Both the position numbers and the translations under genes were made by a program. Shown piece after piece: positions 48,723 through 51,331 of a stretch of DNA of 64,000 bases; position 1 is the stretch's first letter; each line of letters begins with the position of its first letter. Origin of the DNA: a bacterium (GTDB lineage: Bacteria; Sysuimicrobiota; Sysuimicrobiia; Sysuimicrobiales; Segetimicrobiaceae); assembly GCA_035703895.1 (NCBI GenBank), contig DASSXJ010000113.1:4159-68158 (forward strand), written 5' to 3'. Below the pieces are notes generated by a model. That model was given only the letters and a program-made list of their open reading frames with translations, had not been told where the DNA came from and made no database searches.

Positions 48723-48804
48723 ACTCACGGTGTCGAAATCCGGGTTGCCGGTCCGTCATGACACTGAATGGACAACTCAAGGCCCGACTGGGAGGTGGAT
48801 GTTC

Positions 48805-49152
48805 ATGCACTACAGCCTGCTGTTCTATCAGAGTCCCGAGGACTTTGCCGCTCGAACGGACCCGCGCAAGCGGGAGGCGTTCTGGGGCGCATTCCTTCCG
48901 TACATGAAGGCGCTCAGGGATGCCGGCGTCGTAGTCGCCGGAGCCGGTCTACAGCCACCCGACTCTGCCACCACATTGAGGCTGCAGGGCGACAAGCGCC
49001 TGGTGCAGGATGGACCGTACTCTGAGGCCAAGGAGCAACTGGGCGGATTCTTTGTCATCGATGTGCCGGACCTCGACACCGCCCTCGAATGGGCGGCACG
49101 CTATCCCGGCAAAGTGGTCGAGGTGCGGCCCAATCTCCCACCCGTCGAGTGA
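48805..49152 (+). CDS. YciI-like (YCII-related/DGPF) family protein
   Basis: MHYSLLFYQSPEDFAARTDP...FLPYMKALRDAGVVVAGAGLQPPDSATTLR...DGPYSEAKEQLGGFFVIDVPDLDTALEWAARYP is the YciI-like pattern, including a DGPY motif. GGAGG SD at 48791-48795. Confidence 0.8.
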   Translation: MHYSLLFYQSPEDFAARTDPRKREAFWGAFLPYMKALRDAGVVVAGAGLQPPDSATTLRLQGDKRLVQDGPYSEAKEQLGGFFVIDVPDLDTALEWAARYPGKVVEVRPNLPPVE

Positions 49153-49245
49153 AGGCCGATCAGCGACGCGCATCGCGCCATAGAGCGGGCGGCGTCTGAT
49201 TCGTACCGCCGTCTCGTCGCCTTTCTCGCGGCGCGGTCACATGAT

Positions 49246-50385
49246 GTGGCGGCGGCGGAGGACGCGCTTGCGGATGCGTTCCTGGCCGCGCTGGAGACGT
49301 GGCCGCGCACGGGGGTGCCGCACAAGCCTGAAGCGTGGCTGCTCACGGCGGCCCGCCGGCGGCTGATCGACGGATCCCGCCATGCGCGCGTGGAAGCGGG
49401 AGCGCTGCCCGCCCTACTCGCGGCGGCGGACGACGCGCACGCGGCAGCGGGCGCCGACACCGTATTCCCGGACGAGCGGCTCAAATTGCTGTTCATCTGC
49501 GCCCATCCCGCGATCGACGCGGCCGTGCGCACGCCGCTCATGCTTCAGACAGTCCTGGGGCTCGACGCGGCACGTATCGCGTCCGCGTTTCTCGTCAAAC
49601 CGGCGACGATGGGGCAGCGCCTCAGCCGCGCAAAGGCCAAGATCCGCGACGCGGGCATCCGATTTGAACTCCCCGATACTCTGGACTTGCCGCCGCGCCT
49701 CGACGCCGTGTTGGAAGCGATCTACGCCGCCTATGGCGCCGGCTGGGACGATCTGGCGGGAGCCGATCCGCGCCGAAGGGGGCTCGCCTCGGAGGCGATC
49801 GAACTCGGACGGCTCCTCCGGCACCTGATGCCGGGTGAACCGGAAGTACAGGGCCTCCTGGCGCTCATGCTGCACTGCGAGGCGCGCCGCGAAGCACGGC
49901 GCACCGAGGCCGGCGCCTACGTCCCACTGTCGGAGCAGGACACGACGCGCTGGTCCCGGCCGATGATCGAAGAGGCGGAGCAGCTGCTCGCAGAGGCCGC
50001 GCAGGCGGGCCGGCCGGGACGCTTTCAACTCGAGGCGGCGATTCAGTCGGTGCACGCGCTGCGCGCGGGAACGGGCGTGACCGACTGGGAGGCCGTTGCC
50101 CTGCTGTACGAAGGCGTGGTGCGCGCAGCGCCTACGATCGGAGCGCTCGTCGGGCGCGCCGCGGCGGTTGGCGAGGGCGGCGATGCGGTGAAAGCATGGG
50201 CTCTACTGGACGCGATCCCTGCCGAGGCGGTCGAACGGTACCAGCCCTACTGGGCGCTTGCGGCGCATCTCCTCACGCGCCTCGAGCGGCGGGGCGAGGC
50301 CGCCGCGGCGTACGACCGCGCCATTGGCTTGTGCGAGGATCCCGCCACGCGCGAATACCTGGCGCAGCGGCGACGATCGCCCTAA
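49246..50385 (+). CDS. ECF-type RNA polymerase sigma factor with long C-terminal extension; annotated start is suspect (see findings)
   Basis: Region 2 (AAAEDALADAFLAALETWP...PEAWLLTAARRRLID) and region 4 (ARIASAFLVKPATMGQRLSRAKAKIRDAGIRF) are recognisable. The conserved N-terminal segment ISDAHRAIERAASDSYRRLVAFLAARSHD is encoded in frame at 49159-49245 but has no ATG/GTG/TTG. Confidence 0.75.
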   Translation: MAAAEDALADAFLAALETWPRTGVPHKPEAWLLTAARRRLIDGSRHARVEAGALPALLAAADDAHAAAGADTVFPDERLKLLFICAHPAIDAAVRTPLMLQTVLGLDAARIASAFLVKPATMGQRLSRAKAKIRDAGIRFELPDTLDLPPRLDAVLEAIYAAYGAGWDDLAGADPRRRGLASEAIELGRLLRHLMPGEPEVQGLLALMLHCEARREARRTEAGAYVPLSEQDTTRWSRPMIEEAEQLLAEAAQAGRPGRFQLEAAIQSVHALRAGTGVTDWEAVALLYEGVVRAAPTIGALVGRAAAVGEGGDAVKAWALLDAIPAEAVERYQPYWALAAHLLTRLERRGEAAAAYDRAIGLCEDPATREYLAQRRRSP

Positions 50386-50410: not shown

Positions 50411-51331
50411 ATGCGATTTGCGATCGCCATTCCCCAGTTCGTCGCCGACGGGACGTTCAATCCTTCCGGTCTCCGCGCCTACCTGGCACGGGCCGAAACG
50501 CTCGGGTTCGACAGCGCCTGGACGCAGGAGCAGGTGCTGGGCACGATGCCCAACCTGGGACCGATCGAGACCATGACGTATGCGGCGGCGTGCACGGAAC
50601 GGCTGCGTCTGGGCTGCGCGGTGTTCGTCACCCCTCTGCACAGCCCGGTCCATCTGGCCAAGAGCCTCAGCACAGTTGACCAGATCAGCCGGGGCCGTCT
50701 CGAGGTGGGCGTCGGCACCGGAGGGCGGGGTAGAATGTTCTCCGCGTTCGCGGTCGATCCCGATACACTGGTCACGCGGTTCGTCGAGGGACTGCAGCTG
50801 ATGAAGGCGCTGTGGACAGAACCTCGGGTCACGTTCAACGGCCGATTCTGGCAGCTCGACGGCGCGGCCATGGAGCCCAAGCCGTTTCAGAAGCCGTACC
50901 CACCGATCTGGTTCGGCGGCAGCCACCCGGCCGCGGTCCGGCGTGCCGTCCGGCACGGCGATGGCTTCTTCGGCGCCGGGTCGCAGACAACCGGCCGGTT
51001 CGCTGAGCAGGTACGGGTTCTGCGAGACGCGCTCGCGGAGAGTGGACGGTCTGCCGCCGGGTTCCGAATCGCCAAGCGCGTCTACCTCGCCGTGGACGAT
51101 GACGCCGCGCGCGCCCGGCAGCGGATCGGTGCCGCGTTGAACAAACTCTACGGGTACTTTGGATTACGAGACCTCGAGGCCGTCGGTGTCTTCGGTCCGC
51201 CGGAAGCGTGCGTGAAGGGCCTGCGCGCGGTGGCCGACGCGGGCGCCGAGATGATCCTGCTCAATCCGCTCTTCGATGAAGCCGAGCAGATGGAGCGCCT
51301 GGCCGCTGAGGTCGTACCCCAGCTGTCCTAG
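50411..51331 (+). CDS. LLM-class F420/flavin-dependent oxidoreductase
   Basis: MRFAIAIPQFVADG...LGFDSAWTQEQVLG...RLRLGCAVFVTPLHSPVHLAKSLSTVDQISRGRLEVGVG is the canonical luciferase-like monooxygenase fold signature. Start at the internal ATG 50411. Confidence 0.85.
   Translation: MRFAIAIPQFVADGTFNPSGLRAYLARAETLGFDSAWTQEQVLGTMPNLGPIETMTYAAACTERLRLGCAVFVTPLHSPVHLAKSLSTVDQISRGRLEVGVGTGGRGRMFSAFAVDPDTLVTRFVEGLQLMKALWTEPRVTFNGRFWQLDGAAMEPKPFQKPYPPIWFGGSHPAAVRRAVRHGDGFFGAGSQTTGRFAEQVRVLRDALAESGRSAAGFRIAKRVYLAVDDDAARARQRIGAALNKLYGYFGLRDLEAVGVFGPPEACVKGLRAVADAGAEMILLNPLFDEAEQMERLAAEVVPQLS

What the first reader, a model, noticed from the sequence alone, without database searches (positions are those of the whole stretch)
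49148..49250. Sigma-factor gene whose conserved N-terminus has no canonical start codon: possible frameshift, rare ATC start, or YciI-sigma read-through
The ORF-track start is GTG at 49246, giving MAAAEDALADAF.... The 29 codons before it are in the same frame, follow the YciI stop at 49150-49152 without interruption, and encode ISDAHRAIERAASDSYRRLVAFLAARSHD. That is exactly the conserved region-2.1 segment these YciI-associated ECF-like sigma factors start with.

There is no ATG, GTG or TTG in that stretch, only ATC at 49159 and ATA at 49180. A GTG at 49148 overlaps the YciI stop as GTGA, the classic coupled arrangement. It is in the adjacent frame and would need a 1-nt correction near 49157 to join the conserved frame.

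The possible explanations are a genuine frameshift mutation (a decaying sigma factor), a sequencing or assembly indel, initiation at a non-canonical AUC codon, or stop-codon read-through giving a YciI-sigma fusion.
Basis: seen in the sequence. Interest (0 to 1): 0.55.

Follow-up and report, generated by a model that had tools for sequence, protein, structure and literature searches.

The report
Sigma-factor gene without a normal start codon
An ECF42-type sigma-factor gene sits one nucleotide out of register with the GTG start its nearest relative uses, yet it stays conserved in at least seven independent soil metagenome assemblies. It is probably translated at a low level from a rare AUC start codon just after the upstream YciI gene. 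This is a tidy but not unprecedented case of non-canonical translation initiation.

Summary

- **Layout.** YciI (48805-49152) and the sigma ORF share a frame. The 31 codons between TGA 49150 and GTG 49246 contain no ATG, GTG or TTG.
- **What those codons encode.** They encode the first sigma-2 helix, which all full-length orthologues have.
- **Not a sequencing error.** The junction GAG TGA AGG CCG ATC AGC is identical in seven independent assemblies.
- **Not a decaying gene.** Within this clade pN/pS is 0.245 for the gene body. First and second codon positions of the upstream segment vary as little as in the rest of the gene.
- **The key comparison.** The nearest relative with DNA (L110-L112) starts sigma at the GTG of the GTGA overlap and has exactly one nucleotide fewer (G49158).
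- **Best explanation (about 0.48).** Ribosomes finishing YciI re-initiate at AUC 49159, 6 nt after the stop, giving low, YciI-coupled sigma synthesis.
- **Parallels.** Two other lineages of this family also lack a canonical start. One has ATG changed to ATC and one has CTG, each behind a good Shine-Dalgarno sequence.
- **Not excluded.** UGA read-through giving a YciI-sigma fusion, a truncated product, and +1 frameshifting.

This is a new member of a known kind, of moderate interest.

The parts
48731..48757 (+). ECF42-type promoter motif TGTCGA-N17-CGTC upstream of YciI
   Evidence: It has the same form and spacing as the S. meliloti RpoE10 (ECF42) motifs TGTCGG-N17-CGTC (PMC6180224). A TGTCGAA...CGTC motif sits at the equivalent position, about 70 nt before YciI, in 23 of 40 related loci.
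48791..48795 (+). Strong Shine-Dalgarno sequence (GGAGG) for YciI
   Evidence: The duplex with the anti-SD is -11.5 kcal/mol, with a 7-nt spacer to ATG 48805.
48805..49152 (+). YciI / DGPF-type gene (115 aa), stop TGA 49150-49152
   Evidence: Pfam YCII scores E=3.4e-15. It is called as 115 aa in relatives. pN/pS is 0.11 within the clade.
49149..49199 (+). GTG overlapping the YciI stop (GTGA), opening a 16-codon ORF (VKADQRRASRHRAGGV*) one base out of the sigma frame
   Evidence: Translation is shown. The homologous GTG is the real sigma start in L110-L112. It has no SD.
49158..49158 (+). The one extra nucleotide (G) relative to the GTGA-start relative L110
   Evidence: Nucleotide alignment: window gagtgaaggccGatcagcgac against L110 gagtgaacgcc-atcatcgac. 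It is present in all seven clade assemblies.
49159..49161 (+). ATC, the proposed near-cognate start codon of the sigma factor
   Evidence: It is the only near-cognate codon between the stop and the conserved helix that is invariant in the clade. It lies in the alignment column where several orthologues have their ATG; for example L035 reads RPMSDARR against the window's RPISDAHR. It is 6 nt after the YciI stop, inside the -8..+10 nt range reported for termination-reinitiation (PMC10666635).
49159..50385 (+). Full-length ECF42-type sigma factor ORF (408 codons plus stop)
   Evidence: Pfam finds Sigma70_r2, Sigma70_r4_2 (just under cut-off) and DUF6596. It is 72-85% identical to 405-420 aa orthologues over the whole length. 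The AlphaFold2 model has pLDDT 84.8, and its best PDB fold matches are TPR proteins (E about 2e-3).
49180..49182 (+). ATA, the start used in the NCBI annotation of this gene (HET8999567.1, 401 aa, MERAASDSY...)
   Evidence: This codon is GTA in all six other clade sequences, so it cannot be the conserved start.
49246..49248 (+). GTG chosen by ORF and gene callers (379-aa truncated call)
   Evidence: Its SD is poor at -3.4 kcal/mol. It corresponds to Val30, so a product from here lacks the whole of helix 2-27.
50411..51331 (+). Luciferase-like monooxygenase gene 25 nt downstream (context, syntenic in relatives)
   Evidence: The ORF appears. Bac_luciferase is called directly downstream in L001, L002, L004 and L005.

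Best explanation
This is a YciI(DGPF)-ECF42 sigma operon in which the sigma reading frame has no canonical start codon.

The nearest relative starts sigma at the GTG of a GTGA stop/start overlap. In this clade that GTG is one nucleotide out of register because of G49158. The sigma factor is nevertheless still made and still under selection.

The most likely route is as follows. Ribosomes translate YciI from its strong Shine-Dalgarno sequence. They terminate at UGA 49150-49152. A small fraction re-initiate 6 nt downstream at the near-cognate AUC 49159, which is decoded as Met by initiator tRNA. This would give a full-length sigma (M-SDAHRAIE...) in small amounts, strictly tied to YciI translation. 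Most re-initiating ribosomes probably take the better GTG 49149 and make a 16-residue peptide.

Shown:
- the anatomy of the junction;
- its conservation across assemblies;
- purifying selection on the gene;
- the one-nucleotide relationship to the GTGA-start relative;
- the parallels in other lineages.

Inferred:
- that AUC is the codon actually used;
- that initiation is by re-initiation;
- that output is low.
For: 1. **The state is real and old.** The sequence GAG TGA AGG CCG ATC AGC is identical in seven independent assemblies. P0008, at 84% identity, has the same 93-nt spacing.
2. **The gene is functional.** pN/pS is 0.245 over 378 codons, with no stops or indels.
3. **The 28 codons after ATC are coding.** Their first and second positions vary at 8/56 sites, against 125/378 for gene-wide third positions (Fisher p=0.0047). 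That is indistinguishable from first and second positions in the rest of the gene (p=0.38). The other two frames contain stops and give pN/pS of 1.1-1.4. All invariant family residues are retained.
4. **ATC is the only candidate.** It is the only near-cognate codon between the stop and the conserved helix, it is invariant in the clade, and it lies in the orthologues' start column.
5. **Tight coupling is the family norm.** Of 43 loci, 16 have a -4 NTGA overlap and 31 have a stop-start distance between -4 and +11 nt. A distance of +6 is within the experimentally supported re-initiation range (PMC10666635).
6. **There are independent parallels.**
   - The L057/L059/L063 clade has ATC exactly where its sister L048 has ATG. 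It keeps an SD of -6.4 to -10.9 kcal/mol, and YciI is in a different frame, so a fusion is impossible there.
   - The L107-L109 clade has a conserved CTG 6 nt after a GGGAG SD and stays under selection (pN/pS 0.27 at pS 0.35).
7. **AUC and CUG are known to work.** They initiate at about 1-2% of AUG in E. coli, and for AUC an N-terminal Met was confirmed by mass spectrometry (bioRxiv 10.1101/063800).
8. **There is no separate entry point for ribosomes.** No sigma-70-type promoter or terminator lies between the genes. None of the sigma candidates has a good SD.
Against: - There is no direct evidence of the N-terminus.
- The SD-like AAGG is only 2-3 nt from ATC (-4.2 kcal/mol), too close for normal SD-guided initiation.
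- GTG 49149, at the ideal -4 overlap, should out-compete AUC for re-initiating ribosomes.
- ATC is also simply the preferred Ile codon. It is an internal Ile in relatives P0004 (V-I-D-D) and P0032 (V-N-A-I-I-D), so its presence need not reflect selection as a start.
- The within-clade contrast of codon positions in the 28 codons alone is not significant (p=0.14).
- Because YciI and sigma are in frame, read-through would also translate these codons.
- One apparent parallel was withdrawn. In L046, P0033 and P0110 an upstream ATG exists and the old Met column drifts between I, L and K.
Confidence: 0.48

Rival explanations
1. Stop-codon read-through. A small fraction of ribosomes decode UGA 49150 (probably as Trp) and continue in frame. 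The product would be a 526-residue YciI-W-RP-sigma fusion, and that fusion would be the functional or selected form.
For: YciI and sigma are in the same frame with a single stop between them. That stop is UGA followed by A, which I recall to be a relatively weak termination context in E. coli. Read-through would translate the conserved 29 codons equally well. The CTG clade L107-L109 is also in frame.
Against: - No natural YciI-sigma fusion was found. None of the 120 best homologues of either the sigma factor or an artificial fusion query exceeds 441 aa or carries PF03795.
- None of the roughly 110 loci has an uninterrupted YciI-sigma frame.
- The in-frame arrangement has a one-in-three chance expectation, and in this group it is inherited rather than independent.
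- The L057 clade lacks a canonical start although YciI is in another frame.
- No RNA structure or Rfam element lies near the stop.
Confidence: 0.15
2. A truncated sigma factor. Translation starts at GTG 49246, or in this genome alone at ATA 49180 as NCBI annotated it. The protein would work without its first helix, or with only part of it.
For: Every ab initio gene caller chose GTG 49246 for clade members. PGAP chose ATA 49180 for this very gene (HET8999567.1). Purifying selection on the 378 downstream codons is compatible with this reading.
Against: - The upstream 28 codons evolve like coding sequence.
- They keep all invariant family residues.
- A GTG-49246 product would lack the whole of helix 2-27 of the sigma-2 domain.
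- GTG 49246 has no usable SD and lies 93 nt from the YciI stop, beyond the coupling range.
- ATA 49180 is GTA in all six other clade sequences.
Confidence: 0.1
3. Programmed +1 ribosomal frameshifting. Ribosomes re-initiate at GTG 49149 through the GTGA overlap, read Val-Lys(-Ala), then slip +1 into the sigma frame around AAG-G or GCC-G.
For: GTG 49149 is the homologue of the real start in L110-L112 and sits at the optimal -4 overlap. Exactly one nucleotide has to be skipped. An SD-like AAGG lies within the site.
Against: - There is no slippery P-site codon with good +1 re-pairing.
- There is no slow or stop codon in the A site. A shift at codon 1 would land on UGA itself.
- There is no SD-like element at the roughly 3-nt prfB-type spacing.
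- No stimulatory structure is predicted (z=0.62), and there is no Rfam hit.
- The L057 clade would need a shift in the opposite direction.
Confidence: 0.07
4. A silenced gene. The start was lost and sigma is not translated at a meaningful level, so the locus is on its way to decay.
For: There is no canonical start and no good SD, and a competing GTG decoy ORF is present.
Against: All differences among clade members arose after the start-less state was established. They still show pN/pS of 0.245, with 125 of 206 variable columns at third positions, and no stops or indels in 408 codons across seven sequences. P0008, at 84% identity, is still intact.
Confidence: 0.07
5. A sequencing or assembly error, that is a spurious extra G at 49158.
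For: Removing a single base would restore a GTGA-coupled start.
Against: The junction is identical in seven assemblies from different samples, pipelines and archives. It is not in a homopolymer run.
Confidence: 0.01

Closest known systems
[quoted passage not shown]
   Same: [quoted passage not shown] A YCII gene lies immediately upstream, probably in the same transcript. A TGTCG(G/A)-N17-CGTC promoter motif is present. No anti-sigma gene is adjacent.
   Different: The sigma ORF has no ATG, GTG or TTG start. Described members and most relatives have a canonical start, usually overlapping or abutting the YCII stop.
Genes with conserved near-cognate start codons. Examples recalled from my own knowledge are infC with AUU, E. 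coli pcnB with AUU, and Myxococcus xanthus dsg/infC with AUC
   Same: A one-base variant of AUG sits where relatives have AUG or GUG. It is conserved in a clade, and the expected effect is low translation. AUC gives about 1-2% of AUG in E. coli.
   Different: There is no evidence here of IF3-type autoregulation. The SD is poorly placed, so initiation would have to rely on ribosomes delivered by the upstream gene. The N-terminus has not been verified.
Translational coupling by termination-reinitiation at NTGA or short-spacer gene junctions
   Same: The stop-start distance of +6 nt is within the working range. The downstream gene has no independent SD. The family norm is a -4 overlap.
   Different: The restart codon would be AUC rather than AUG or GUG. 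A better GTG in another frame competes with it at the -4 position.
prfB-type programmed +1 frameshifting
   Same: An in-frame UGA and a one-nucleotide offset separate a short ORF from the main conserved ORF.
   Different: There is no CUU-U-type slippery codon, the stop codon is not in the A site of the shifting ribosome, and no SD-like stimulator sits at the required spacing.

Membership tests
ECF42 sigma factor group | Sigma-2 and sigma-4 core domains of an ECF sigma factor | tested here: met
   Pfam Sigma70_r2 scores 36.2 bits against a cut-off of 24. Sigma70_r4_2 scores 23.4 bits, just under its cut-off of 25.7. Weak matches to NCBIfam ECF models span residues 16-166. Helices in the AlphaFold2 model fit this layout.
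ECF42 sigma factor group | C-terminal extension of about 200 aa containing TPR-like repeats | tested here: met
   DUF6596 scores 110 bits at residues 182-283. The model of residues 174-406 is all-helical with pLDDT around 90. The best PDB fold matches are TPR proteins, with Foldseek probability 1.0 and E about 2e-3.
ECF42 sigma factor group | YCII-related (DGPF) gene directly upstream in the same orientation | tested here: met
   YCII scores E=3.4e-15 at 48805-49152. The arrangement is the same in relatives and in S. meliloti.
ECF42 sigma factor group | Group-specific promoter motif TGTCGG-N17-CGTC | tested here: met
   TGTCGA-N17-CGTC lies at 48731-48757. It compares with the S. meliloti motifs and is positionally conserved in 23 of 40 loci. 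Activity was not tested.
ECF42 sigma factor group | No cognate anti-sigma factor gene adjacent | tested here: inconclusive
   The neighbours are ABC-transporter permease and binding-protein genes upstream and a luciferase-like monooxygenase downstream. Only immediate neighbours were examined, and only through Pfam labels.
Near-cognate (AUC) initiated gene | No canonical start in frame between the upstream stop and the conserved domain | tested here: met
   and the same in all clade members.
Near-cognate (AUC) initiated gene | Near-cognate codon conserved among relatives at the orthologous start position | tested here: met
   ATC is invariant in seven sequences and lies in alignment column 15, where L015, L017, L035, L036 and others have ATG.
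Near-cognate (AUC) initiated gene | Ribosome-binding site at functional spacing | tested here: not met
   The best duplex is -4.2 kcal/mol with a 2-3 nt spacer. The parallel ATC and CTG clades do have proper SDs.
Near-cognate (AUC) initiated gene | Experimentally mapped N-terminus (Met at the AUC position) | not testable with these tools
   This needs proteomics or initiation-site ribosome profiling.
Termination-reinitiation coupled gene pair | Stop-start distance of about -8 to +10 nt on one transcript | tested here: met
   The distance from TGA to ATC is +6 nt. No promoter-like or terminator-like site lies between the genes. The range is taken from PMC10666635.
Termination-reinitiation coupled gene pair | Downstream translation depends on upstream translation | not testable with these tools
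   This requires reporter constructs with YciI start or stop mutations.
Programmed +1 frameshift (prfB-like) | Slippery P-site codon that re-pairs in +1, with a stop or hungry codon in the A site | tested here: not met
   Inspection of GUG AAG GCC GAU shows that only AAG to AGG re-pairs even partially. The A-site codons GCC and GAU are ordinary.
Programmed +1 frameshift (prfB-like) | Upstream SD-like stimulator about 3 nt before the shift site, or a stimulatory RNA structure | tested here: not met
   There is no SD upstream of GTG 49149. The fold z-score is 0.62, and there is no Rfam match.
Functional stop-codon read-through fusion | In-frame downstream ORF behind a leaky stop | tested here: met
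   The context is UGA-A, there is a single stop, and the frames are the same.
Functional stop-codon read-through fusion | Fused architecture exists as a natural protein elsewhere | tested here: not met
   No YCII+sigma protein appears among the 120 best hits for either query. This is a limited test, because only close relatives are listed.

The most novel reading that the evidence does not exclude
Near-cognate initiation may be a recurrent, selected expression governor in ECF42 operons.

In at least three lineages the sigma factor can be made only from a codon with roughly 1% efficiency: AUC here, AUC in the L057 clade and CUG in the L107-L109 clade. Here that codon is reached only by ribosomes that have just finished the YciI/DGPF partner.

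This would fix a very high partner-to-sigma ratio. It would also damp the positive feedback of an autoregulated promoter. The out-of-frame GTG ORF would act as a decoy that tunes the fraction of ribosomes reaching AUC.
Probability: 0.25. Interest if true: 0.55.

Novelty: new member of a known kind. Interest (0 to 1): 0.36.

Why it matters
**Annotation.** Gene callers truncate this sigma factor by 29 residues in every clade member, removing the first helix of the core-binding domain. NCBI's annotation uses an ATA that is not conserved. Family-aware start prediction would correct this here and in two other lineages.

**Biology.** If AUC re-initiation is confirmed, this would be a natural example of a regulator whose synthesis depends on, and stays far below, that of its operon partner. 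The function of ECF42 sigma factors and their DGPF/YciI partners is still unknown, so knowing that their ratio is tightly controlled would be a useful clue.

**Evolution.** The case also shows that a one-nucleotide indel at the 5' end of a gene can be tolerated for a long evolutionary time.

Tried and rejected
- **Sequencing error.** Rejected by seven concordant assemblies.
- **Pseudogene.** Rejected by pN/pS.
- **L008/L046 as an independent ATG-to-ATC case.** I first counted it as one. I withdrew it after finding that L046, P0033 and P0110 have an upstream in-frame ATG (MTA[RQ]RGGS...) and I, L or K in the old Met column. Only L008 lacks any canonical start, and it remains ambiguous.
- **ATA 49180 (the NCBI start).** Rejected as the conserved start, because it is GTA in all other clade members.
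- **Stimulatory RNA structure at the junction.** None was found (z=0.62), and there was no Rfam family.
- **Internal promoter or terminator.** None was found.
- **Natural YciI-sigma fusions.** None appeared in two database searches.
- **Solved structures.** Only a weak SigC sigma-2 hit was found.
- **DNA of the closest canonical-start relatives.** P0004 (86% identity, GTG one codon before the ATC) and P0057 could not be fetched because the sample file was too large. The polarity of the indel therefore stays unresolved. Relatives show both 11-nt and 12-nt spacings between TGA and the conserved GAC codon.
- **Primary ECF42 paper.** PMC6182237 is not in the library.
Full report
**1. The observation**

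- A 115-codon YCII-family gene (Pfam E=3.4e-15) runs 48805-49152 and ends GAG TGA.
- The sigma ORF found by mechanical ORF listing starts at GTG 49246 (379 aa).
- The same frame is open back to the YciI stop. It reads RP-ISDAHRAIERAASDSYRRLVAFLAARSHD and contains no ATG, GTG or TTG.
- ATC is at 49159 and ATA at 49180.
It opens a 16-codon ORF in the neighbouring frame that ends at TGA 49197-49199.

**2. What the gene is**

The extended protein has three Pfam matches: Sigma70_r2, a Sigma70_r4_2 match just under its cut-off, and DUF6596. An AlphaFold2 model built on 36 sequences (pLDDT 84.8) is all-helical. Its best PDB fold matches are TPR proteins.

These features, together with the upstream YCII gene, fit the ECF42 group described in the literature. 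TGTCGA-N17-CGTC at 48731-48757 has the same form and spacing as the S. meliloti RpoE10 (ECF42) promoter motifs. A comparable motif lies about 70 nt upstream of YciI in 23 of 40 related loci.

No sigma-70-type promoter or intrinsic terminator lies between YciI and sigma. The two genes are therefore most likely one ECF42-dependent operon.

**3. The upstream segment belongs to the protein**

- Pfam Sigma70_r2 aligns from residue 18 of the extended protein.
- The segment forms helix 2-27 of the model, ahead of helix 30-51. GTG 49246 encodes Val30.
- In an alignment with 35 full-length homologues, the window keeps every invariant residue (R18, L19, L23, R26, D29) and every nearly invariant residue (E9, A12, S15, A21, A24, S27) upstream of the GTG.
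- Orthologues at 80% identity or less are 405-420 aa. They begin M-D-A-R-R-A-V-E or M-x-D-A..., about five residues before the conserved A-[IV]-E.

**4. It is neither an error nor a dying gene**

The seven closest database proteins (84-99% identity) are all called at 378-383 aa, which is the same truncation. I fetched the DNA for six contigs from different projects: ENA ERZ1758404, NCBI GCA_030157205.1, Logan SRR30884395, and JGI 3300025922, 3300005468 and 3300076621. All carry GAG TGA AGG CCG ATC AGC unchanged and no canonical start.

All differences among these sequences arose after the start-less state was established. They show purifying selection:

| Region | pN/pS | Variable columns by codon position (1, 2, 3) |
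|---|---|---|
| 378 codons after the GTG | 0.245 | 41, 40, 125 |
| YciI | 0.11 | 10, 3, 32 |
| 28 codons after ATC | 0.54 | 4, 4, 8 |

The other two frames of the 28-codon segment give ratios of 1.1-1.4 and contain stops.

In those 28 codons, first and second positions vary at 8/56 sites. That is significantly less than gene-wide third positions (125/378; Fisher p=0.0047). It is no different from first and second positions elsewhere in the gene (p=0.38). The contrast within the 28 codons alone is not significant (p=0.14).

**5. The one-nucleotide offset is real**

P0032 (77% identity) is encoded on eight JGI contigs. Three were fetched as loci L110-L112. Its YciI C-terminus is almost identical to the window's: WAARYPGKVVEVRPNVLPVE* against ...NLPPVE*. 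In these loci sigma starts at the GTG of the GTGA overlap:
- L110: GTG AAC GCC ATC ATC GAC... (V N A I I D P R R A L E R A A S D S Y)
- window: GTG AAG GCC G ATC AGC GAC...

These differ by one extra base, G49158.

Its direction is unresolved. The relatives L107-L109 and L052, L076 and L079 share the window's 12-nt spacing between TGA and the conserved GAC codon. L110, L047 and L020 have 11 nt. DNA for the closest canonical-start relatives, P0004 and P0057, could not be retrieved.

**6. How sigma is probably translated**

Shine-Dalgarno strength for each candidate start:

| Candidate start | Duplex with anti-SD | Spacer |
|---|---|---|
| YciI ATG 48805 | -11.5 kcal/mol | 7 nt |
| GTG 49149 | none | - |
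| ATC 49159 | -4.2 kcal/mol (AAGG) | 2-3 nt |
| GTG 49246 | -3.4 kcal/mol | 7 nt |

Sigma therefore has no ribosome entry site of its own and must depend on ribosomes arriving from YciI.

That is the family norm. Among 43 related loci with a canonical start, 16 have the -4 NTGA overlap and 31 lie within -4 to +11 nt. Experiments place efficient termination-reinitiation within about -8 to +10 nt (PMC10666635; review PMC12548453).

ATC 49159 is +6 nt from the stop. It is the only near-cognate codon before the conserved helix, it is invariant in the clade, and it lies in the column where several orthologues have ATG. For example, L035 reads RPMSDARRAAE and the window reads RPISDAHRAIE. AUC initiates at about 1-2% of AUG in E. 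coli, with Met at the N-terminus (bioRxiv 10.1101/063800).

I therefore favour re-initiation at AUC, which would give a low, YciI-dependent sigma supply. GTG 49149 would probably capture most restarting ribosomes into a 16-codon decoy ORF. That last point is inference.

**7. Parallels in the family**

- **The L057/L059/L063 clade.** It has ATC exactly where its sister L048 has ATG. It sits behind a GAGGG SD (-6.4 to -10.9 kcal/mol), and YciI is in a different frame, so no fusion is possible there.
- **The L107/L108/L109 clade (gene calls P0120, P0078, P0089, all truncated).** It has TGA, one codon, then a conserved CTG 6 nt after a GGGAG SD (about -8 kcal/mol). It remains under selection (pN/pS 0.27) at substantial divergence (pS 0.35).
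- **L008/L046.** This third apparent case was withdrawn, because its relatives have an upstream ATG.

**8. Rival explanations**

- **UGA read-through.** It is compatible with the in-frame layout. However, no natural YCII-sigma fusion appears among the best 120 hits to sigma or to an artificial fusion, and no stimulatory structure or Rfam element exists.
- **+1 frameshifting from GTG 49149.** It lacks a slippery codon, a slow A-site codon and a stimulator.
- **A truncated product.** One starting at GTG 49246 would lack the first sigma-2 helix and has no SD.
- **NCBI's ATA 49180 start.** HET8999567.1 (401 aa) is identical to the window's protein. ATA is GTA in all other clade members, so it cannot be the conserved start.

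**9. Verdict**

The feature is a real, conserved ECF42 sigma gene without a canonical start. It differs by one nucleotide from the GTGA-coupled arrangement of its relative and is most likely expressed from AUC by coupled re-initiation (confidence about 0.48). It is a new member of a known kind and of moderate interest. Its main value is as an annotation correction and as a testable example of expression-limiting start-codon choice in an autoregulated sigma operon.

Noticed in passing
window 48731-48757: There is an ECF42-type promoter motif, TGTCGA-N17-CGTC, about 48 nt upstream of the YciI start. The same TGTCGAA...CGTC motif is positionally conserved in 23 of 40 related loci. Looser matches elsewhere on the + strand of the window (2559, 16856, 44698, 52695, 63789) were not examined for downstream genes.
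   Followed up: partly
window 49149-49199: A 16-codon ORF (VKADQRRASRHRAGGV*) starts at the GTG of the GTGA overlap. It is present in all clade members and could act as a decoy for re-initiating ribosomes. Its stop arises from the conserved Ser-Asp codons (TCT GAT) of the sigma frame.
   Followed up: partly
window 49180-49182: The NCBI protein HET8999567.1 (MAG TPA, unclassified 'bacterium', 78,432-nt contig) is this gene annotated from the non-canonical ATA start. The neighbouring YciI is HET8999566.1, annotated at 117 aa from ATG 48799 rather than 48805.
   Followed up: yes
window 50411-51331: A luciferase-like monooxygenase gene follows sigma after 25 nt and has its own GGAGG. It is syntenic in L001, L002, L004 and L005, so it may belong to the same operon or regulon.
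   Followed up: no
contig of P0008 (JGI 3300047160; no DNA) and L107 604-1437: The P0008 contig carries two consecutive YCII-ECF42 gene pairs. L107 has two tandem YCII genes ahead of its sigma gene. Local duplication of the module therefore seems common.
   Followed up: no
L046 about 150-235; proteins P0033 and P0110: One sub-lineage has gained a 21-residue N-terminal extension from an upstream ATG (MTA[RQ]RGGS...). The ancestral Met column has since drifted to Ile, Leu or Lys. L008 keeps the extension sequence, but there it is cut off by the YciI 3' end and an in-frame TGA, which leaves no canonical start.
   Followed up: partly
L057 125-2128: The sigma ORF in L057 runs for 668 codons, against 423 in its close relatives L059 and L063. 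Either the stop codon is missing or there is an assembly difference at the 3' end.
   Followed up: no
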